Origin: Octopus vulgaris
Taxonomy: Eukaryota
Reading direction: 5' to 3'
Assembly: GCA_951406725.2 (NCBI GenBank)
Contig: OX597834.1
Location: 35,216,001-35,280,000, forward strand
Length of the DNA: 64,000 nucleotides
The notes under the pieces were generated by a model. The model saw nothing but the letters and a program-made list of their open reading frames with translations. It ran no database searches and had not been told where the DNA came from. Below are positions 9,452 through 41,081 of this stretch, piece by piece (position 1 is the stretch's first letter; every line of letters begins with the position of its first letter). Both the position numbers and the translations under genes were made by a program.

Positions 9452-10458
9452 GTAAGTGATAATTTCTTTTATATTCTAAACCTTTTCTTCTTTTTTCACA
9501 CCACTTAGAAGTTCTTAAAAATAGAAGCCCTTTTCATAAAGTGTAAGGAAAGAAATCCATTAATTTCTTATATAATTGTCTACAATGCAGAAAAAAAAAA
9601 AAAGTGAAATAGTGCAACATCTTACAAACATTTTCCATCTAATTAACTCTTCTCTGTCACCCCAAATTTGTAGCCTGGTAAGAAAGTAGTGTGTTCATTT
9701 GACCTTTTCCATCCATTAGCATTCTGAAACCTTGTTACGGTTATCTCTCCAAATGTTCTATACAAATTATAGCCAGCACATGTATCTGAGATATCAGATG
9801 AAAAAAATGGATAATGGGCATGTATGTCATATTGTGGGAGCTTTTGCTCCTTCATCAGCAACCACCTAACCCCTAAAGCACCCACAAACACATTCACTAT
9901 TGTGGCAACTTGTTATTTAAACTACTTAAACAGTTTCCAGCTTCAAAAGCTGACGAACCAAACTTCAAGAGACCCATGCTTCACAACCACATTGTTTCAG
10001 GTTCAATCACATTGCATAGCACCTTGGGCAAGGCCCAACTTGACCAAAGGAAAATTGTGTGCTAGTTGTAAATGAGAGTCACTGTCATACAAGCAGAGTC
10101 TCTCTGGCAAGAAGAGCATCTGGTAGAAAATCTGCCTCAATAAACTTCGTCTGACTTGTGCAAACACACAAGGGTAGAATAGACAGTGTTGATGATGTCA
10201 TTGCCGAGGTTTTGATCCACATCAACAAGCCAAGACGCTTCTGAATTATAGGACCTAACATAAGCAACATTTCATTGAAGCAGTTTATATGGCAGAAACA
10301 GGGATCAAATAGCAGGTGTTATATTAAGTTTCATGCTGCCTGTAGGATTTTAATATCATTTGATCCGTTTTTGCCATATAAACTGCTTCAATGAAATGTT
10401 GCTTATGTTATCCTGTTTATTTCCAACCCATATAAATCACTTCTCTTTTACTTCACAG

Positions 10459-11408: not shown

Positions 11409-11429
11409 TTAAAACTGAATCATCTGGCC
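11409..11429 (-). CDS. RPL36A: 60S ribosomal protein L36a (eL42/L44) exon 5
   Basis: minus strand tttcatttcag|GGC CAG ATG ATT CAG TTT TAA = GQMIQF*, the canonical eL42 C-terminus; AATAAA follows at 11390-11395. Confidence 0.9.
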   Translation of the reverse strand, partial: GQMIQF

Positions 11430-12101
11430 CTGAAATGAAAGAGAAAAATGCTTTCAGTAAAAAGAAATATATACACATGTACATCGCAAATATATACACA
11501 CAAAGTTAGACATTAAAACCAACTGACTAGTTTCTCTCATGCTTATTCTCAGGATTGTAATTGCCCACAGCTGAAAGCTCACAAGTTTTTGAGAACAGCC
11601 TAATCATAATTTGTTATACACAGAAAGAGATGCAAATGTAACTGAAGCCAATAAGATTTATCTACTGTTTAGCCCTGGGCAGCAATGCAACAGCACTCAA
11701 TCCATAGCAGTAGCTCCCGCTTTTTTGTTGTTGTCGAGGGACCCCTTTGATTCCTGTTCTATTCTCCTGGAACTCCATAGCCATTCGATGTACATAAAAT
11801 AAGACAACCAGTGTGTCTATGTATGCCTTATGATGCTGAAGCAGGTTGGATGGGGTGACATTGCTCCACAGACACAGCAGTCTGTCACATGAAGGAAAAA
11901 CAGAAGAGCTTCTCCTGCCACACTAATCATGGGGGATAAAATAACTTGGAAACCAAAGCGTATTCTCTTATTCAACAGACATGATGTAAAAAAAACCTAA
12001 TCTATTTCTCTAAACACCAAAACTTCAAATATCTCTGGTTGAAGAAAAAACATGTAACAGATGACAGCAAGCCACCAGAGAAATACAACCCAAAGGAAAA
12101 G

Positions 12102-12290
12102 GTATGTAGCAGGTGAGTGCGAGACACCAGTCATCCAACATTAAGAAAGAGGTTGCACTGGGTCCATACGTCTTAATCCTGACAGTTTAATCTCCTTCCC
12201 TGGGTACAATCACAACTGACACGGTCAACTGACCAATGCAAAAACACTGGTCATAATGACTACAACTGGACACTGATGTACAGGAAGGTA
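12102..12290 (-). ncRNA. box H/ACA snoRNA copy A1 (SNORA81/HBI-61-like)
   Basis: Sense to RPL36A: long 5' hairpin CCTTCCTG...CAGGGAAGG, H box AGATTA, 3' hairpin CAGG...CCTG with loop CCTCTTTCTTAATG, ACA 3 nt from the end. Confidence 0.8.
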
Positions 12291-12492
12291 TTTCACATTA
12301 CACAAAAGCAGTTTTAGCAATTTTAAATAAACATATATAAAAGTGACAAAAATAATTGTACAAATTGATTTTACAGACCATCTCATAGTCTTTTAGCAAA
12401 AAACAAATACTGGCTTACGTTAGAGAGAGAGAGAGACCAGTGAAGTAAACTGCAAGAGATTTGAATACAATTTCCTATCCAACAGTTGAAAT

Positions 12493-12661
12493 TCATGTAT
12501 CAGGCAACAGTGAGACACCAGGCAACTTAGCGACTGCACTGGGTCAAGTCAATCCTGATTGTTAATGTCCCTCCCTTTGTTTAATCCCAACTGACAGTCA
12601 ATGGCCAGTGTGTGTATACATACACACTGAACACAATGACTACAGTCAGACATAGAAGGTA
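12493..12661 (-). ncRNA. diverged H/ACA paralog, subtype B1
   Basis: Alignable to the A copies; keeps H box ACATTA and terminal ACA but lacks the CTCTTTCTTAAT loop. Confidence 0.5.
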
Positions 12662-13007
12662 TATATAAATTATACACAAACACAAATCTAAACCGAGAAG
12701 ACACAGGCTTCCATGCCAATGGACAGAATGGAATTTGTTGAATAAAATTAGAGCAACAATGAAAACGTCAGCATCTCTATCTTAGCATGAATAAACTCAA
12801 TTTACTGAAACTATAGCTAAGTATGAGGTTATTTAAACACGAAAGTATAAATGTAAGGCTACAATACCAAACTGCGAGTATTACAACTTGCAGTCCTAAA
12901 TATGTTAAACACAAGTAAGTTTATCAGCTTCACTGAAGACATTACACCAAGTCCTATAAAGTGCTTCTACTTATAAAATAGTACACCAATATGACCAAAA
13001 TGAAAAG

Positions 13008-13196
13008 CTATGTAGCAGGTGAGTGCGAGACACCAGTCACTCAACATTAAGAAAGAGGTTGCACTGGGTCCATACGTCTTAATCCTGACAGTTTAATCTT
13101 CTTCCCTGGGTACAATCACAACTGACACGGTCAACTGACCAATGTGTACACACTGGTCATAATGACCACAGCTGGACACTGATGTACAGGAAGGTA
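13008..13196 (-). ncRNA. box H/ACA snoRNA copy A2
   Basis: 189 nt, near-identical to A1; H box AGATTA, ACA box. Confidence 0.8.
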
Positions 13197-13895
13197 TTAG
13201 CACATTAGCTAACTCACCATACACGTAGGACTCAGGTACTGAGAAAGAAACCCTTGGTTGAAATGGAAATTTTGCCTAAGTACAGAAGGGGTAACCTTTT
13301 GGCATTTAAGCCAACCAAAACTTTCTACTGGCCTCTCACACGTACCTTACATCATACTAAAGATAAACAATCAAAATCTCAAAGCGATGAGATAATGCAT
13401 GGCTAATTCAAAACAATACACAAACGTATTTCACAGAATAATCTGAATGCTGAAGGGTTGAATATGAAGTCAACCAAGTTTATTTCATTAACACCACAAA
13501 CTGAATAATCCCGCATTGGAAAGTGCTACATCAAGGGAACAATGGTTGTCTAATTAAGGAACTCAGCTCATAAACCTTTGGAATTCAAATGACCCTACCA
13601 AATTTACAATCACATTGTTTTGAATCATGCACCATCTCCTAGCTTCAGTATCTCTATGCAATATTACAGGGCAAGTATGAAAGGCAGGATCTGGTTAGTT
13701 TAAATGCCAAAAGGTCAAGCAAAATCATATTTATAAGGCATGTGAAATATGTTCTCTTATTCAACAGACATGATGTAAAAAACCCAATCTATTTCTCTAA
13801 CCACCAAAACTCCATGTCTCTTGCTGAAGAAAAACATGTAACAGATGACAACAAGCCACCAGTATCTACCAGAGCAATACAACCCAAATGAAGAG

Positions 13896-14084
13896 CTATG
13901 TAGCAGGTGAGTGCGAGACACCAGTCACTCAACATTAAGAAAGAGGTTGCACTGGGTCCATTCGTCTTAATCCTGACAGTTTAATCTCCTTCCCTGAGTA
14001 CAATCACAACTGACACGGTCAACTGACCAATGCAAAAACACTGGACATAATGACTACAGCTGGACACTGATGTACAGGAAGGTA
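13896..14084 (-). ncRNA. box H/ACA snoRNA copy A3
   Basis: 189 nt, near-identical to A1; its flank 13750-13895 duplicates 11960-12101. Confidence 0.8.
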
Positions 14085-14439
14085 TTTTCAAATATTAAAC
14101 TTTATTATTATTATTATTATTATTATACACTGACACACACACAAACCACCACATTGCTTTTTAATCAAACCAATGTAAAAAAAAACATTCAGGAACATAA
14201 TTAAAACAGACTTGATTCATGAAGTAAACTAGAAGAGATTTGAATACAATACTTCAGCCAACAACGGGAGACCAACCATTGTACCTAACGGCAGTTTTTG
14301 GTCTAGCCTAAACCACAAATCAAACGTTTCCATATCAATTACTCCAAATTACCCTGGCTAATTTAAAACCAAAATTAACACAAAGGCTGCATATTTGAAT
14401 AGAAATATAGCAACATAAAGGCTAATATCTCTCCTTTTA

Positions 14440-14657
14440 TACAATTACAATCACCATAGTCAATGACCAATATATATATATGCTGTAGAAACACTGCCAG
14501 ATCAGACTGGGCCTGGTGCAGCCTTCTGGCTTCCCAGACCCCAGTTGAACCGTCCAACCCATGCTAGCATGGAAAGCAGACGTTAAACCATGATGATAAT
14601 ATATATATACACACACACATTGGTCACAATTGCAGAAAGAAGCACACAAGAAAGTAT
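14440..14657 (-). pseudogene. decayed subtype-B snoRNA copy (B2) interrupted by a SINE fragment
   Basis: tgaccaatatatatata[SINE 3' end ~14483-14597]atatatatacacacacacattggtca: the 5'-hairpin apex is split by an insertion; the B-type flank GAAGTAAACT...TTTGAATACA is at 14221-14248. Confidence 0.5.
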
Positions 14658-16181
14658 ACAAACTATACATAATATTAACAAAGTATAAACCTAGTTTGAG
14701 GAGATAATTAGGTTTCCAGACCAAGCTTGGCATAAATATAGCATTTTAAACCTAAAACAAAGAGCTTATTGCTAAATGAAAAGAAACTAGGGCAGCAAGA
14801 GATTACTTATGCTTTTCCCTGCCACTAACCAACTCAGAAACTAATGGCTTATACACAAAACCATATTTTAACAAGGTTATCAACAGAAGTCCTACAACAC
14901 CAGAGATAACATGTGGCTTCACTAAGTAACTGCTTATCTTTGGTGTAAAAATTCTCCATTTTCCAAATGTTCCCTCTCCACATAATAATATATTTTCTGT
15001 AATTTTACAAACCAGGCATCGGTTTCACATTCAGACACCAGAATCCCAGAAGCAAATGAAAACTGCAACTGAACCCTGACAACGATAACAATCCCTCTTT
15101 CTAAGATGAAGTTTTAGAAAGAAAAGAAACTTAATGTGTAAAAGATTAGATTACCAAGGGAAAATCCCACCCCAGAATTACCTCAACTAGGAAACAAAGA
15201 AAAAGCAATGAAAGATGGGTGTGAGCAGAGAAACCAACCAGTCTAAATGATGTTTAGTCACGTTCCACAACAGTTGCCCCACCCAGCAAGGGCTCAATTC
15301 TCAGCCAACTTCACAGAGGAAATCAAATTCCTCGCAAAAAAAAAACCATCGATGCTGAATGAAACATTCTATTAAAAGAGATGTTGATGCGGGGAGAGGA
15401 GAGAGAAAAGGAAGAGCACAGATGAGCCTTTAGGTGACCCCCATTACTCTAGTATAAATAGGATACATTTTGAATGTCAGTATATGACATATGAAGCCCA
15501 ACAGATTTCTGGCAATATATGCCAAGTAAACCGAGAACATTACAATTTATGAGGCATGTATTGGGCAATACTGTGGTACGATTTAACCGTGTTACAGTAA
15601 TTGTTAACAGAAAAGATCAGCAGTTGGATTAGCTTTACTTTTGCTATTTCATGCTTGCATGGGTTAGATGAATGTGCTACTGGGGCACTGTTTTATAACG
15701 AAATTCCTTTCCTGCTGCAAGCTGCCACACATTCAAGTAAAGGAACTCATATCCCACATGGCTTTGAAGCAGATGATTTGTTCACAAGAGATATAAATGA
15801 ATTTATAAGAAAAAAGAAGATTGCATACACAGAAGCAAAATTGATTTTTTGTTTTCAATACCCTGACCCCAACAGCTACATGGTGTAGATTAGGTGAAAT
15901 GGAGGATGTTACATCAGGTAACAAGCGATGAGCTGCAGAACCCATGCTGAAGCCGATATCAGAGCTTAGTGTAACCCTGCGGCTTGCCAAACTGTCCAAC
16001 CCATGCAAGCATGGAAAATGGGTACTGTAAGTGATAATTATTGTATTGTGAACCCCATTTTTTAAATATATACCAAGCTTTAGGGACTGATATGTACTAC
16101 AATCACCTGCAGTTCCAAATATAGTAACAAATGCCTACTCATATTATATACCTACAACAGCAAGTCAACCCAAAAGGAAAG

Positions 16182-16328
16182 ACATGTAGCAGATGAGTGT
16201 GAGACACCTGCCATTCAACATTAAGAAAGAGGTCCATACGCCCAAATCCTAACAGTTTAATCTCCTTCTCTAGGTACAATCACAACTGACCAATGCATAC
16301 ACACTGGCCACTGATGTACAGGAAGGTA
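16182..16328 (-). pseudogene. internally deleted H/ACA copy A4
   Basis: Same ends and boxes as the A copies, with three deletions between short direct repeats (GGT, CAACTGAC, CTGG). Confidence 0.65.
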
Positions 16329-16480
16329 TATTCCCCATTAAATAAATTCCTCAGCCCAACCAGACCGTCTTTAAGCCAAATCAATGTAAAAATATTGACT
16401 TCTTACATTAACCAGAGATGTAGATTAGTGAAATAAACTAGAAGTGATTTGAATACAGTTTCCACATTCAACTGCTGAAA

Positions 16481-16653
16481 TAATGTAGCAGGCAACAATA
16501 AGATGCCAGTTAATGTAGTGACCGTACTGGGTCTGGTCAATCCTAAGTGTTAATGTCCCTCCATGATCACAACTGACACAATCAATGGCCAGTGTATATA
16601 CACATACACTGGACACACCAACTACAGCCAGACAAAGAATGCACAGGAAGGTA
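16481..16653 (-). ncRNA. diverged H/ACA paralog, subtype B3
   Basis: 5' CCTTCCTG, H box ACATTA, CCTGCT-ACA end; lacks the conserved loop; shares flank with B1. Confidence 0.5.
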
Positions 16654-17355
16654 TATAAACTATATGAGAGCAAATATTAATAAATCAAATCTTAATGAGG
16701 TTTTAAGTTTTCAATTCAATCCTGACACAAAAATTTGGCTAATCAAAAAAAGAGTTCATTGCTAAATGAAATCAGAGCAACATTTCTATGTTAACATCAA
16801 TAAACTTAATTTACTAAAATAAAAGTTAATTAAATAGGTGTGTATAAATTAAGTGAAGAGCTGCATTTAAGAAATTGCACAATGCCCATTGAATGCTCCT
16901 CAGGCTTTATATGCCATCAGACCAACACAACACAAGCTGGAAGACCTCAATGGTAATGGTAGTAAGACAGCAGTTAGTCGACAATGAGAAGGCATTGACC
17001 CTTTAGCATTCAGATTACTGTCAAACAAAGCTTATTTATTCAGTTTTAAATGATCTCATAGCTTTGAAATTTCAACAACATAATTACTTTTAGAATGATA
17101 TAGTAGTGTAGGTTTGAGAGGTCAGACCTGGCTTGTCTGAACAGAAAACAGAACAATTGGGTCAGATACGACCAAGTTAAATGGGAAAGGATTAAGTTTC
17201 CATACTAAAACCAAAACGAGTTGTTGCTAAATGAAATCAAAACAAAGAAAATTTCCTGAAACTATGACTCTACATATAAATATATTTAAGAGAAGAATTT
17301 CTTTGATGAGATTACACCAAATTTCGTGTTCTCACATCAATATGAACAAGCTGGA

Positions 17356-17541
17356 AGGTGTTTCAGGTGAGTGCGAGACACCAGTCATTCAACATTAAGA
17401 AAGAGGTTGCACTGGGTCCATACGTCTTAATCCTGAGTTTATTTCCTTCCCTGAGTACAATCACAACTGACACGGTCAACTGACCAATGCATACACACTG
17501 GACATAATGACTACAGCTGGACACTGATGTACAGGAAGGTA
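17356..17541 (-). ncRNA. box H/ACA snoRNA copy A5
   Basis: 186 nt; H box AAATAA (ANANNA), CCTG-AA-ACA end, conserved loop. Confidence 0.78.
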
Positions 17542-18251
17542 TTATTGCTATTACTGCATGATACAAAATATAAACAAGAAATGCAATCAGTCACTTAAAC
17601 AGAAACTAACCACACACAAGTGACATAAAAACACATTCTACCAATTGACTAACACCTTTCCTTATGGAACATTCAAAACAAACCTTATTAGTGAGAGAAA
17701 TAACACAACATTACCATCCGCAGTATCGTCAATAAAATAAGATCTACTTCCATTGTCAACACTGACCGATAATAACTAGTGAGGGTTGCTTACAATAAGG
17801 AACAATATGAAAACCATGGTACTATTATAGTATAGCTGATCAATGCCATCTCAGGACAGCAAGCGACTTTTTGATTAGCAAAATACAACACTGATGATGA
17901 CCACCACCATTGAAGACCAGACTGTAAAACTAACAAAACCACAACGTATTTCTTAGTAAGATGAAGGATATAGGGGTTAAAATAATTTTGTAATGCTACT
18001 GATAAGACTATGAAATCCCTCTACCCATCCTGCCTTACCTGAACAAACACACAATATTTCCCGATTGCAGTTTAACAAGATCACACAATGGACACCAGGG
18101 CTAGACATTCTCTGACCTGAGCTGGTCAGTTCTTAACTGGAACCGCATTACTGGTTCCATCATGATACTGCTCAAGGAACTGCAGTCACTACCCAAATGT
18201 TACATTTATTTTACAAAGATATTGAACACCAATCATCAAATAGAACAATCG

Positions 18252-18440
18252 AATTGTAGCAGGTGAATGCGAGACACCAGTCATTCAACATTAAGAAAGA
18301 GGTCGCACTGGGTCCATTCGTCTTAATCCTGACAGTTTAATTTCCTTCCCTGAGTACAATCACAACTGACACGGTCAACAGACCAATGCAAAAACACTGG
18401 TCATAATGACTACAGCTGGACACTGATGTACAGGAAGGTG
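18252..18440 (-). ncRNA. box H/ACA snoRNA copy A6
   Basis: 189 nt, starts ~65 nt after the GC donor; H box AAATTA, ACA box; flanks unrelated to the other copies. Confidence 0.8.
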
Positions 18441-18505
18441 TTGGTGCAAAAACAAAAAGTCTGTTCAAATGCACAAAAAGTAGGGAGTATAAAAACAGGA
18501 CTTGC

Positions 18506-18622
18506 CTTCTTTTTCTTGTCACCTCCAAGCTCAAAGTGCTTACACCGTTTAATTGGCAGTTGTTTTCTATATTTGCATTCTGTACACTCCATTCGAAGGA
18601 CAATTTTCTTGGTGGTTTTAGC
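18506..18622 (-). CDS. RPL36A: RPL36A exon 4 (GC donor)
   Basis: ctctag|[39 protein letters not shown]|gcaagt; 117 bp, phase 0. Confidence 0.95.
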
Positions 18623-18747
18623 CTAGAGAAACACGAAAAGTAAATTTTCACATCTCAAACACATAACACTGGAAAGGCAGCTAACATAATAATACTTGAG
18701 CCATTCAGAAAGAGGACACATTAAAAAAGGCAGACGAATATACGTAC

Positions 18748-18815
18748 CTTTTTGTGAAAGATAGGTTTGGTCTGACCACCATAACCTCTTTGTTTTCTGT
18801 CGTAACGTCTCTTAC
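18748..18815 (-). CDS. RPL36A: RPL36A exon 3
   Basis: ttgtag|(G)[22 protein letters not shown]|gtacgt; contains the GGQ motif. Confidence 0.97.
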
Positions 18816-19961
18816 CTACAAATAAATAAAACATTTTTAATTCCAATATATAAGACAAAACACAATTACAACCTAGGATCCGATTCTCAGGAAACAGAAT
18901 AATTCTAAAGAGTCCTTCCCTACAAGGATACAGCAGTTGTCTCCCTATTGCCAGAATTTCTCACCCAAATGATAGAAACCACAGGAGTTTCCCGTAATGG
19001 ATCCACCTCCCTAAATGAAGGAATGACTCGCTTCTTAATACTAAAACAGTTAACGAATGAAATGGAATAACAGACATGCAACAACTACGCTTTACAAACT
19101 CGGCATTAAGGTTTTCTAACTCTTATACAAATATCAAAATAATTTTGACAAAAGAAGGGACGCAACTACGTTAATTACAAATTATTGGATATACAAAAGG
19201 GGGCACGGTTTAGAAAGAGCAGAGAAAAGGCGAGACATTCAGGTCTTGCTTCTAAGATTATTTACTAGAAAAAAAAAAAAATTAATATATCAATGAGCTT
19301 TGGAAGGATAGTGAATTCATAAGACACATTGGCGACAAACAGGTGCTAGGTTCAAAGCAACATGTAGGTTGTCGAATGAAACCCCTTCCTCCTGCTTCGA
19401 TTTAACTACGTATTACCCCTTAACAAAATTGTTAAATACAGAATCCCTAAGACCGCTCTTATTAAGGACCCTTAACAGAATGAGCAGGGAACAGGATTCA
19501 TATCATCAATATAAACAAAAAGAGAACTATCCTACTTCGACCATTTTTACTTAACATTCCTCATGATTTCTGTATTTTATTTGTAAATTTAACCACGTGG
19601 ATGCATATAAGCACATACTGCAGCAGTTGGCTAATCATTTCAGCTGAGATAAACACGATCGTCAGTCGAAGTAAATCGATTATATAGACTATGAACATTA
19701 AATACAGTGGTGTTTTAGAATAACTCTCCCTTGAAATTACATAAAGGTTAGCCCTTGCCATTTTTTTTTAAAAAGTACTCATGAATTTCATACAACAAAG
19801 AATTGTGATTTTGAAACATAATTTCAAAATCACCCTCAAAAGCATTTTATGCCACTCCCTTCACCCATTCCAGTACCAGAAACACAGGCAACGAGCAATA
19901 GATACATCGAAACTGTCCAAAATACTGAGAGTTGCTAAAGGATCTCAGGAAGTTTCTCATA

Positions 19962-20216
19962 CCATGTGAATGGCAGCAAGCATCAAAACTGTTGTTCAAG
20001 CCAAACCAACAGCAACCTTTACACTTGCACCACAACTCATGCGAATATCTACCGCAAGTCCAGTTCTTGTGTCGCAGTGTGCCTTAATGCCAACCCTAAC
20101 CCTTGAGCAACACCAACACAATGCAAGCTCCTTGGAGGGCCTATGCCAGACAGGTCAAAGCCTGACTAATACGGTCATCCCCTTCCCAGAAGTAAAAATC
20201 AGTTTGCATAGGGCCA
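19962..20216 (-). ncRNA. candidate structured intronic RNA ending in ACA (H/ACA-like, unassigned)
   Basis: Minus-strand stems GGCCCTATGC/GCATAGGCC, ACTGCGA/TTGCGGT, GCAAGTGT/ATGCTTGC, GCTGTTG/CAACAGT, then ACA+3 nt; G-U pairs favour the minus strand; no perfect ANANNA found. Confidence 0.35.
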
Positions 20217-20229
20217 ACAACCCCACAAA

Positions 20230-20370
20230 GAGAATAGTAAAGTTACAGGAACATCAGTGACAATCCAAAACCAAGGGCTGGGAGAGGAAGACCTTCGGGG
20301 ACAGCTCAGAGCTGAGAACAGTGGAGAAAAGTCGCCGATGGCCCACAGTCCATAGGGAATGAAAGGCTTA
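20230..20370 (+). mobile_element. RTE-type LINE 3' end fragment in RPL36A intron 2
   Basis: GGGAGAGGAAGACCT (GRGRP) and TGGAGAAAAGTCGCCGATGGC (WRKVADG) near a tail-like end. Confidence 0.5.
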
Positions 20371-20487
20371 ATACCTACCCATGGCCATGTACTTATGATT
20401 ATAACACTACGTCACTTCTTCGTGGATCATTAGATGCATTGTGCAGAGATAACAGTAAAAATACAAATACAACTTTAGGGGCCTTAC

Positions 20488-20599
20488 CTTGGGCACATAG
20501 TGAGGCTTTACCAGCCTTGTACTGTGACACCTTGTGAAGAGTATGTTTCCTGCATTTTCTACCTTTGCAGTAGGTCCGCCGGGTTTTGGGGACGTTCAC
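20488..20599 (-). CDS. RPL36A: RPL36A exon 2
   Basis: tcacag|[38 protein letters not shown]|gtaagg. Confidence 0.97.
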
Positions 20600-21975
20600 C
20601 TGTGAGACAAAATATAATTATAAAATTTAGGGAACAAATCTTAACAGAAACTAGATAAGTTGAGTTTGATGTGATAGTGATGGATACATAACGAAAATTA
20701 AAGCCTTAAGCTTCCCTGGTAAATTACGGGTGACTTAATTCATTCAACCTCGAACAGCCAATAGTCTTTAAAACAAGGGACAGTTGACTGCTAAAAATAA
20801 CAGCCAGATATCCCTGCAATGATGTCATTCCTGATATACATAAAACATGGTCGTGGGTGGAATACCTTTAACCCAGAGTCGTAGGTCTCCTCTGCTCAAT
20901 AAGGACAAACCCGAGCCTAAACATCAACACTTGAATTCGAGTACATTATACCTCATTTGTTCCTCTTTCAATAAATTTTCACTTTTTTAAAAAACTGCCG
21001 ACTAAACAAACCATTGCTCGTTCGAATTTTAGATGAGTTATCCCGAAACTGCAGGAGACCTCTTGAATGTTGATTTTCAGGTAGTACTTAAATGCAGGTG
21101 TTACGTACAAAAGCATTCTAAATGTACGCTGTGCAGACGTGTAACGACACCTTAAACCCTAAAAACTAACCCTACCCTACACATCGTTACGTAGAAGCTT
21201 CGGGACCTCCGTGTTCAAGTAGTGGGGCTCCTCAATGGTCCTTAACAGCATTTCCATCCACTAACTTATTACTTTCAAAGTTTATGCTAGATCAATCAAA
21301 TGTATATGTGTGTGTATATTGAAGGACGGTTGTTATAATTGAGAAATGGAATCAATAGATGAAGTGGAGGGTCTTCACCAGAAACCAGATCTCCTGAAAC
21401 ATTACAAACTTTTAAATTTAAAAAAGTATATACCTACCTATACATATATATAATACTACCTATATATATATAATACTACCTATATATGTTTATATGCATA
21501 CAAAAGCTTGTTTAATGCTGATAAACTGTATAAATTCATGGTATTTTAGTATTGATAAATCCAACATATTCAGTAATTTTTATGTAGAAGGCTGACACCA
21601 TGTGATTATAGACATTAAAATATCATCACTAAAAGCTTATTATAAATAATAATAATACACAATAGATAAAACTGGCAAAACTAACGTAACATTAAAAGTA
21701 TATTCTCTAAATTATTTGAAAGATGAGGGGAAAATTTAGAAGAAAAACATATTTAAGCTCTGAACTTGCAACAACTGTACAAGTTTTTAGACTCCGACAT
21801 GGAGAAAAATTTTGCTTATAAAACCTTTTAGGCTCAGTTTTAAAATACGTAAGTTTCATAAAATGGAATAAAACAGACCTATATGTGTTAATAAAAAGGT
21901 TTATGGTGAATATATATTGTAAATGATGCAAGATGGTAAGGGATTAATCTGGAAAAATTAGAAACGTGTACTCAC

Positions 21976-21978
21976 CAT
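21976..21978 (-). CDS. RPL36A: RPL36A exon 1 (initiator ATG only)
   Basis: minus strand cctcttccgctaagcattgagaATG|gtgagt; ATG-only first coding exon typical of RP genes; spliced total 106 aa. Confidence 0.9.
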
Positions 21979-40139: not shown

Positions 40140-41046
40140 ACTGGTAGTTAACAAAACTTGGGTTTGGGTCGTATCTCTTATATGATTACAGTGCTTAGGT
40201 CATAACTTATAATTAGCATTTAGATACTAAGTGTCATACTATAACTTAGTGTTTGGGCAGTAGCTATTGTATAACTAGTGTTTAGGTCAAAGCTATTATA
40301 TATCTGTGATGTTTAGGTTATAATTACTAGTGTTTAGACCATAGCTGTTACTTAGTGTTTAGGCTAAAGCTGTTATCTGTAGTATTTAGATCATAATTAT
40401 ATATCTGTAGTGTTTGGGCTATAGCCATTATATATCTGTAGTGTTTAAGCTATATCTGTTGTCTAGTGTTTAGCTCATAATCATAGTAACTATTATATAG
40501 GCCATAGCTGTCATATCTGTAGTGTTTAGGCCACAGCTGTTGTATATCTGTAGTGTTTAGGCTAAAGCTGTTTTATATCTGTAGTGTTTAGGCTATAGGT
40601 GGTATATCTGTAGGATTTAAGCTAAATCTGTTGGCTGGTATATATCTATAGTGTTTAAGCTAAAGCTGTTTTTGTATTTGCCGTGTTTAGGCCATAACTG
40701 TTTTATATCTAGTGTTTAGGCCATAGTTATTTTATATCTAGTGTTTAGGCCATAGCTGTTATATATCTATAGTGTTTAGGCTAAAGCTGTTATATATCTA
40801 TAGTGTTTAGGCTAAAGCTGTTATATATCTATAGTGTTTAGGCTAAAGCTGTTATATATCTATAGTGTTTAGGCTAAAGCTGTTTTGTTTTGTATCTAGT
40901 GTTTAGGCTATAGGTAGTATATATATATATAGTATGTAGGCTAAATCTGTTATCTGTAGTGTTTAGGTCATATCTGTTATATATCTATAGTGTTTAAGCT
41001 AAAGCTGTTTTGTAATGCTGTTATCTATAGTGTTTAGGCCGTAGCT

Positions 41047-41081
<35 letters not shown>

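What the first reader, a model, noticed from the sequence alone, without database searches (positions are those of the whole stretch)
12102..12190. 3' hairpin matches vertebrate SNORA81 (HBI-61), including a conserved CUCUUUCUUAAU loop
Seen: the 3' hairpin reads GAC-CCAGU-GC-AAC-CUCUUUCUUAAU-GUU-G(G/A)-AUG-ACUGGU-GUC. As I recall it (unverified), human SNORA81, hosted in EIF4A2, has GAC-UGGGG-UG-GAC-CUCUUUCUUAAU-GUC-CA-AUG-UCCUUU-GUC: same loop and AUG bulge, different but pairing stems. The 5' hairpin offers a short GUA/UAC pocket about 14 nt from the H box, loosely compatible with the 28S site (GUA-Psi-G-UGC) attributed to SNORA81. Inference: the snoRNA sits in a different host gene here, and the loop is a deeply conserved non-guide element. 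It also resembles the 18S rRNA segment CUCUUUCUUGAU, so it could be a protein-binding site or an rRNA mimic.
Basis: partly seen in the sequence, partly recalled or inferred. Interest (0 to 1): 0.7.

Follow-up and report, generated by a model that had tools for sequence, protein, structure and literature searches.

The report
Octopus snoRNA aimed at ribosome break
An intron of an octopus ribosomal-protein gene holds eight copies of a likely small nucleolar RNA that shares an unchanged 12-letter loop with vertebrate SNORA81 and whose guide pocket is predicted to pair across the spot where octopus ribosomal RNA is known to be cut, so it is a candidate guide for that unexplained cut.

Summary
Window 12102-12289 (minus strand) has box H/ACA anatomy and is one of eight tandem copies in the 7-kb last intron of RPL36A in an octopus-type genome. 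It fails the Rfam SNORA81 threshold (12.3 bits; cut-off 45). Yet a vertebrate SNORA81 fetched here shares a 16-nt block around the loop at the same spacing, on stems with 5 compensatory pairs of 12, and aligns better than 3000 of 3000 shuffles: a remote homologue in another host gene. New lead: the 3' pocket pairs, 4+8 bp in the usual register, with this genome's 28S helix 88, across the incirrate-specific break TATG/CGTC. It is the top site in 12.7 kb, but 38 of 1000 shuffled guides score as well somewhere, and a G sits at the pseudouridine position. Best reading: a non-modifying, snR30-like guide that holds H88, with the loop as a protein dock (0.38). Rivals: chance match, pseudouridine guide for the neighbouring U, an 18S site. 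Expression and binding are untested.

The parts
12102..12289 (-). Focal H/ACA-type RNA, 188 nt to ACA+3 (loop-bearing, type A)
   Evidence: Two hairpins, H box and ACA box; ends are predicted, not mapped
12194..12288 (-). 5' hairpin; pocket predicted closed, no convincing target
   Evidence: Folds; target scans
12188..12193 (-). H box AGAUUA
   Evidence: ANANNA kept in 8 of 8 copies as AGAUUA, AAAUAA, AAAUUA, ACAUUA
12165..12172 (-). 5' strand of the 3' pocket, GACGUAUG; predicted to pair with 28S H88 UAUGCGUC (break motif)
12123..12164 (-). Upper stem-loop shared with SNORA81 (GAC/GUC base, 4-bp stem, 3-nt bulge, 5-bp stem)
   Evidence: 5 of 12 pairs changed on both sides against L016
12140..12151 (-). 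Invariant apical loop CUCUUUCUUAAU
   Evidence: Identical in L016 and Rfam consensus; 6 of 8 window copies
12119..12122 (-). 3' strand of the 3' pocket, UCGC, starting 15 nt before ACA; predicted to pair with H88 GCGA
12105..12107 (-). ACA box
   Evidence: present in 8 of 8 copies
13008..13195 (-). Type A copy
   Evidence: 219.7 bits to model R1, which was built from it
13896..14083 (-). Type A copy, A at the position facing the break G
16182..16327 (-). Type A copy with internal deletions; 5' guide extends the H88 pairing to 10 pairs, 3' guide loses one
   Evidence: 91.1 bits
17356..17540 (-). Type A copy
18252..18439 (-). Type A copy, A at the position facing the break G
12493..12660 (-). 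Type B copy without the loop; 3' pocket predicted to guide pseudouridine at own 28S U3892
   Evidence: 54.5 bits; 7+6 pairs, 1 of 1000 shuffles as good
16481..16652 (-). Type B copy without the loop; same predicted U3892 target, kept through G-U changes
   Evidence: 48.7 bits; 13 of 1000 shuffles as good
11430..18505 (-). Last intron of RPL36A, 7076 nt, GC-AG ends, host of all eight copies
   Evidence: splice joint seen in one contig of run X4
11409..21978 (-). RPL36A (eL42) coding span: ATG 21978-21976, exons 20599-20488, 18815-18748, 18622-18506, 11429-11409
   Evidence: Translation; Pfam Ribosomal_L44 on two exons

Best explanation
This is one of eight tandem intronic copies of a likely box H/ACA snoRNA, likely descended from the same ancestor as vertebrate SNORA81, whose 3' pocket is predicted to base-pair with 28S rRNA helix 88 across the octopus-specific break and would hold it there without modifying it, while the invariant loop likely docks a protein. 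Shown: the boxes, the array, the host gene, the likeness to SNORA81, the C at the old 28S target, the complementarity to H88. Inferred: release from the intron as dyskerin snoRNPs, loss of the 5' guide function, binding to pre-28S before H88 pairs with H22, a protein on the loop, and a part in folding or licensing the cut.
For: H box in 8 of 8 copies with the free letters varying, ACA in 8 of 8. Copies are 94-96% identical while 11 of 12 flank comparisons are 56-69% (one 92%). Homology to L016: 0 of 3000 shuffles, 5 of 12 pairs compensated. The register is fixed by homology: the GAC/GUC stem base lies 15 nt before ACA in both RNAs. In that register the top contiguous site in 12,669 nt of pre-rRNA, U2 and U6 is 28S H88, score 11 against 8.5 for the next; it spans TATG/CGTC, the break motif of PMC13321053, present once in each of 4 of 4 fetched 28S copies. 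The H88 regions of 37 of 37 other eukaryote fragments (mostly fungus-like, no cephalopod) score 4 to 6.5. Opening cost is lowest for H88: 6.7 kcal/mol against 11.5 (18S rival) and 13.2 (U1 rival). The three 5'-guide changes of copy 16327 keep or extend the pairing. In four runs from four other coded organisms no substitution is listed in the loop or in UCGC. Copies that lost the loop have an ordinary U target. snR30 has the same division of labour (PMC2664660).
Against: The H88 match was first seen by eye after reading the break motif, so it is post hoc. 38 of 1000 shuffled guides score as well somewhere in 18S+28S (2 of 150); with gaps allowed H88 ranks 2, behind an 18S site, and 35 of 200 shuffles reach its score. 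Two of 5 intact copies, and all cover of organism C, have A facing the break G, which splits the 8-bp helix; for these copies H88 ranks 6 or 2. One contig of organism D has a further helix-breaking change. Copy 16327 loses one pair of the 3' guide. The 3' side is only 4 bp. No squid, cirrate or other invertebrate homologue could be obtained, so there is no guide-target covariation. snR30 pairs in the lower pocket with distant motifs; this match is in the upper pocket and contiguous. No evidence of expression or binding.
Confidence: 0.38

Rival explanations
1. The RNA is a real SNORA81-like snoRNA kept for its loop (a protein dock or scaffold); both pockets are orphan and the H88 match is chance.
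For: 3.8% of shuffled guides score as well; several sites compete under other scorings; the vertebrate 3' pocket is short and A-rich while the loop is invariant; the U/A variant weakens the helix.
Against: The top contiguous hit falls on one 8-nt lineage-specific motif in 7,533 nt of rRNA, in the register set by homology; copy 16327 extends it.
Confidence: 0.27
2. The 3' pocket binds H88 but as a pseudouridine guide, in a shifted register, for the first U of UAUG. By my recall this matches human 28S pseudouridine 4361 (old 4331), guided there by SNORA23; that equivalence comes from no call.
For: An alternative register gives 5+6 pairs around that U (read); 28S pseudouridine 4331 exists in human (PMC10454564 passage); type B copies show the scaffold can serve ordinary guides.
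Against: It needs the invariant GAC/GUC base to open, leaves a U-C mismatch beside the U, and puts the U 16-17 nt from ACA; it does not appear among the top U-centred hits of any register; the A variant breaks its second pair.
Confidence: 0.2
3. The true partner is 18S helix 30/31 (own SSU near 1736), and H88 matches only because the two sites look alike.
For: Rank 1 in the gapped score for the three intact pocket variants; 1 of 200 shuffles as good; energy -18.9 against -19.2; it uses the whole pocket.
Against: Needs two bulges and a mismatch, and again has G at the active position. With the H88 core fixed, random free letters give an equal non-H88 score in 30 of 439 and 224 of 439 trials, whereas only 1 of 64 fillings of the three imperfect places gives the full H88 score. 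The vertebrate pocket does not show this match beyond 5 bp (read).
Confidence: 0.1
4. It guides pseudouridine at U1 snRNA U143 in stem-loop 4.
For: 9+6 pairs, best U-centred hit of any register.
Against: 17 nt from ACA; 22 of 100 shuffles do as well over rRNA plus six snRNAs, 23 of 300 over the snRNAs alone; highest opening cost; no UGAG in either apical loop (CAB consensus recalled).
Confidence: 0.02
5. The copies are a local repeat or mobile element and not a snoRNA.
For: No Rfam hit at threshold; fold z only -1.34.
Against: Confined to one intron, host strand: 6 BLAST matches and 6 motif matches in 2.8 Gb, all in this intron; boxes kept in 8 of 8; far better kept than flanks; homology to SNORA81.
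Confidence: 0.03

Closest known systems
SNORA81 / HBI-61 (Rfam RF01241), vertebrate H/ACA guide for 28S U4636 (old 4606), hosted in EIF4A2
   Same: 5' end ACCUUCYUGU, about 180-190 nt, 16-nt block with the loop, identical spacing, 3-nt bulge, compensated stems, stem base 15 nt before ACA
   Different: Below the Rfam cut-off; host RPL36A; eight copies in one intron; H96 target is C and the 5' pocket is predicted closed; 3' pocket longer and complementary to H88
snR30/U17 (PMC2664660; abstract and Discussion read)
   Same: H/ACA RNA whose 3' hairpin pairs with pre-rRNA without modifying it and carries a distal element read as a protein-binding site
   Different: snR30 uses the lower pocket and two distant 18S motifs; here the match is contiguous, in the upper pocket, on 28S, and only predicted; no sequence likeness
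Trypanosome LSU-processing snoRNAs (PMC6411936 abstract; PMC9841430 passages)
   Same: snoRNAs tied to lineage-specific fragmentation of large-subunit rRNA
   Different: They act on spacers that are removed or through modifications; the octopus break is in core helix 88; no homology tested
Yeast snR37 (PMC13015370 abstract)
   Same: H/ACA core plus extra elements that recruit non-core proteins to scaffold pre-60S
   Different: snR37 keeps its pseudouridine function and has extra helices; the protein partner here is unknown
Drosophila intronic H/ACA clusters (PMC3089462 passages)
   Same: Several H/ACA snoRNAs in one intron of a translation gene
   Different: The clustering itself is a known arrangement and is not the novelty

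Membership tests
Box H/ACA snoRNA | Hairpin-hinge-hairpin-tail fold | tested here: met
   Centroid fold has two hairpins; 3' upper stem supported by covariation with L016; fold z -1.34 is weak
Box H/ACA snoRNA | H box ANANNA in the hinge and ACA after the 3' hairpin | tested here: met
   8 of 8 copies
Box H/ACA snoRNA | Intronic, on the host strand | tested here: met
   Last intron of RPL36A
Box H/ACA snoRNA | Accumulates as a discrete RNA ending 3 nt after ACA, bound by dyskerin, NOP10, NHP2, GAR1 | not testable with these tools
   Only assembled contigs were served, which cannot show ends or level
Pseudouridine guide (type A copies) | Pocket pairs on both sides of an unpaired U 14-16 nt from a box | tested here: not met
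   No U-centred site above chance in 18S, 28S, 5.8S, U1, U2, U4, U5, U6, U12; U11, U4atac, U6atac, tRNA and mRNA not scanned
Pseudouridine guide (type B copies) | Pocket pairs on both sides of an unpaired U 14-16 nt from a box | tested here: met
   28S U3892, 7+6 pairs at 14 nt; 1 and 13 of 1000 shuffles; register chosen from two tried
SNORA81 (RF01241) | Score at or above the gathering threshold of 45 bits | tested here: not met
   12.3 and 19.9 bits; control L016 189.9 bits
SNORA81 (RF01241) | 3' hairpin with CUCUUUCUUAAU loop on a bulged stem | tested here: met
SNORA81 (RF01241) | 5' pocket complementary to 28S H96 around U4636 | tested here: not met
   Own site reads GGUUUG-C-GCGC in 4 of 4 copies; alignment to Rfam LSU; human context from a primer
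SNORA81 (RF01241) | Hosted in an EIF4A2 intron | tested here: not met
   Host is RPL36A; model R1 and Rfam find nothing in 70 kb around two eIF4A loci
snR30/U17-type processing RNA | m1/m2 motifs in the lower 3' pocket pairing with 18S ES6 | tested here: not met
   No Rfam match; predicted pairing is upper-pocket and contiguous
snR30/U17-type processing RNA | Required for an rRNA cleavage | not testable with these tools
   Needs knock-down
scaRNA | CAB box (UGAG, recalled) in an apical loop | tested here: not met
   Loops read UUUU or GUAU/GUAC and CUCUUUCUUAAU

The most novel reading that the evidence does not exclude
An ancient SNORA81-type snoRNA was rewired and amplified in incirrate octopuses into the guide for the 28S helix-88 break: its 3' pocket grips both sides of TATG/CGTC, leaves the G before the cut in a wobble or mismatch, and its 12-nt loop, unchanged between vertebrates and cephalopods, brings in the cutting or remodelling factor. 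It would be an animal H/ACA RNA that directs a cut in the ribosome core.
Probability: 0.2. Interest if true: 0.95.

Novelty: new variant of a known kind. Interest (0 to 1): 0.76.

Why it matters
PMC13321053 shows that the H88 break raises translation fidelity in octopus and calls it a post-transcriptional cleavage; 'snoRNA' occurs 0 times in its main text and supplement and 'nuclease' 0 times in the main text. This locus offers a named, testable candidate for how the site is chosen. Apart from that, it carries SNORA81, studied in ovarian cancer only as the U4636 guide, outside vertebrates, and shows that its loop outlasts both the host gene and the target uridine, which points to a second, unstudied function that can be tested in human cells. 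I found neither point in print: 40 of 58 papers listed; 20 of 23; 0 papers hold the loop sequence; main texts only.

Tried and rejected
Rfam at threshold over the window: 0 hits; RF01241 over the genome: 0. Loop as antisense guide: no complement above 9 nt with G-U allowed. Loop as 18S mimic: chance level. 5' pocket targets: best any-register U hit scores 10.5, below the 12.5 that 22 of 100 shuffles of the 3' pocket reach; no null was run for the 5' pocket itself. Invertebrate homologues: a strict pattern over metagenome contigs gave 7 loci, 1 of 7 a SNORA81 (vertebrate, L016), 6 not. Animal 28S for comparison: 37 eukaryote fragments from prokaryote assemblies, none recognisably vertebrate or mollusc; 0 in viral contigs. 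Expression: no RNA holder listed; contigs of runs guessed to be RNA cover copies and flanks alike and say nothing on level or ends (7 of 24 listed runs were laid). The difference table showed 40 of 335 rows, so it was not used for counts. The whole genome could not be scanned with the covariance model, so diverged loop-less homologues elsewhere are not excluded. Earlier scan notes: nothing by sequence, place or the octopus words; the 8 notes shown do not bear on this. Paper searches did not confirm the human guide assignments at H88 or at the 18S rival site. Fig. 5E of PMC13321053 (cephalopod H88 alignment) is an image and was not seen; supplements of the other papers were not read and may hold snoRNA-rRNA contact data.

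Full report
Observation. It is the 3' half of a 188-nt element, 12289 to 12102, with a long 5' hairpin, an H box at 12193-12188 and ACA at 12107-12105.

Setting. The element lies in the last intron (18505-11430, GC-AG) of RPL36A/eL42; one contig of run X4 shows the splice joint. The genome has 2.8 Gb, a 2,643-nt 18S and the motif TATGCGTC in 28S helix 88, which PMC13321053 reports as confined to incirrate octopuses; I infer an incirrate octopus. The intron holds eight copies: five intact ones with the loop, one with deletions, and two diverged ones without the loop (type B). All eight keep ANANNA, in four spellings, and ACA. Intact copies are 94-96% identical, their flanks 56-69% in 11 of 12 comparisons. 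BLAST and a loop pattern each find 6 places in the genome, all in this intron. This is the pattern of a tandemly amplified intronic snoRNA; such clusters are known from Drosophila (PMC3089462 passages).

Relation to SNORA81. The Rfam model does not recognise it: 12.3 bits, E 5.9, cut-off 45. A pattern scan of metagenome contigs returned 7 loci, one of them a vertebrate SNORA81 in EIF4A2 beside SNORA63 and SNORD2 (L016). Against L016 the global score is reached by 0 of 3000 shuffles, and by 4 of 3000 without the 16-nt loop block. In the upper 3' stem, 5 of 12 pairs change on both sides; slid structures show at most 1. This covariation rests on one vertebrate sequence against five near-identical copies, so it is one contrast. 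No homologue lies in 70 kb around the two eIF4A loci on C19. I read it as a remote homologue, not a family member by the tested criteria.

The old target is gone. SNORA81 guides 28S U4636 in H96, a site not universally conserved (10.64898/2026.10.06.757013 passages; PMC8759569 passages). The human context is visible in a primer of the PMC13321053 supplement, and the L016 5' pocket pairs with it 5+5 by eye. The same place in 4 of 4 own 28S copies reads GGUUUG-C-GCGC. The octopus 5' pocket strands pair with each other and no target stands out. The loop has no rRNA complement above 9 nt and its likeness to 18S is 10 of 12, reached by 23 of 300 shuffles.

The 3' pocket. The invariant GAC/GUC stem base lies 15 nt before ACA in both RNAs, which fixes the register. 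In it, GACGUAUG and UCGC pair with own 28S GCGA-[GC]-UAUGCGUC, 4+8 bp with two G-U pairs. It is the best contiguous site in 12,669 nt, 11 against 8.5. This is the loop of helix 88, and UAUG/CGUC is the site of the octopus break (PMC13321053 sections 5, 9, 10). The nucleotide at the pseudouridine position is G. One further exchange of pairs would zip 14 contiguous target bases (-19.2 kcal/mol, rank 1). None of 37 other eukaryote H88 fragments scores above 6.5.

How strong is that. I noticed the match by eye after reading the break motif. 38 of 1000 shuffled guides score 11 or more somewhere in 18S+28S; what is unlikely is the place. With gaps allowed an 18S site ranks first (1 of 200 shuffles) and H88 second (35 of 200); but an equal non-H88 score arises in 30 of 439 to 224 of 439 trials once the H88 core is fixed, while only 1 of 64 fillings leads from the 18S model to the full H88 match. 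A U1 site at 17 nt is at chance level. The base facing the break G is U in three intact copies and A in two, and A in all cover of organism C; C was seen in none. That weakens the helix, and could equally leave the cut site open. Copy 16327 extends the 5' pairing to 10 and loses one 3' pair. In four runs of other coded organisms the loop and UCGC show no substitution; one contig has a 4-nt deletion in the loop and two contigs change 12170. No cephalopod without the break could be examined.

Type B copies. Both pair 7+6 around own 28S U3892 at 14 nt from ACA, and their differences are G-U compatible (1 and 13 of 1000 shuffles; register chosen from two). So loss of the loop goes with an ordinary U target, and keeping the loop with a pocket that has none. 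With two copies this is a hint only.

Mechanism. Shown: anatomy, array, homology, lost H96 U, complementarity. Inferred: the copies are released from the intron and assemble with dyskerin; the 3' pocket binds the H88 loop of pre-28S before it pairs with H22; the loop docks a protein, as proposed for the distal 3' hairpin of snR30 (PMC2664660 Discussion) and shown for extra helices of snR37 (abstract); this holds or licenses the site for cutting. snoRNAs tied to large-subunit fragmentation are known in trypanosomes. I give 0.38 to non-modifying H88 binding, of which about 0.2 to guiding the cut; 0.27 to a chance match; 0.2 to a shifted pseudouridine guide (human equivalence recalled); 0.1 to 18S. 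That it is an H/ACA snoRNA related to SNORA81 I put near 0.9.

Verdict. A new variant of a known kind. Interest 0.76: the mechanism is unproven, but it makes the origin of the octopus H88 break and a second function of SNORA81 directly testable. Papers seen: PMC13321053 (passages, sections 5, 9, 10, supplement passages); PMC2664660 (abstract, Discussion); PMC6411936 and PMC13015370 (abstracts); 10.64898/2026.10.06.757013, PMC8759569, PMC9841430, PMC3089462, PMC6962438, PMC10454564 (passages); the rest as search listings only.

Noticed in passing
window 18505-18504 (minus strand): The 7-kb snoRNA-bearing intron of RPL36A starts with a GC donor; the joint is seen in one contig. A weak donor may matter for release of eight RNAs from one intron.
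   Followed up: partly
window 12177-12171 and 12146-12140; L016 3' hairpin: The loop's UCUUAA has a complement UUAAGA inside the 3' pocket in both RNAs, on the 5' strand here and on the 3' strand in the vertebrate. Unexplained; could be a closed state or chance.
   Followed up: partly
L016 2982-3000: By eye, the vertebrate 3' pocket strand UUAAGAUUUGG can pair, with several G-U pairs, with the human H88 loop as given by a primer. One-sided, different register from the octopus match, no null run.
   Followed up: no
window 12583-12579 (copy 12660): The 5' hairpin of this type B copy has UAAAC 15 nt before its H box, complementary to own H96 GUUUG, as if tracking the old SNORA81 site on one side; the other side does not match.
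   Followed up: no
window 10250-10410: Near-perfect long inverted repeat downstream of RPL36A that draws weak miRNA-model hits; likely a small mobile element.
   Followed up: no
window about 22000-21985 (minus strand): Pyrimidine tract just upstream of the RPL36A start codon, as expected of a 5' TOP ribosomal-protein mRNA.
   Followed up: no
L065, L067 (C19) and L066 (C28): Two eIF4A-like exons 36 kb apart on one contig (86% and 76% to the vertebrate exon) and a third on another contig.
   Followed up: partly
L007/L011 spacer: ITS1 carries three copies of a unit of about 365 nt; 18S and 28S have long GC-rich expansions.
   Followed up: no
window 2758-63738: Several dispersed repeat families of 100-230 nt in both orientations, SINE-like, and a 31-nt tandem array at 40250-41050.
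   Followed up: no
L028-L064: At least 37 prokaryote assemblies of the genome collection hold contigs of eukaryotic 28S rDNA.
   Followed up: no
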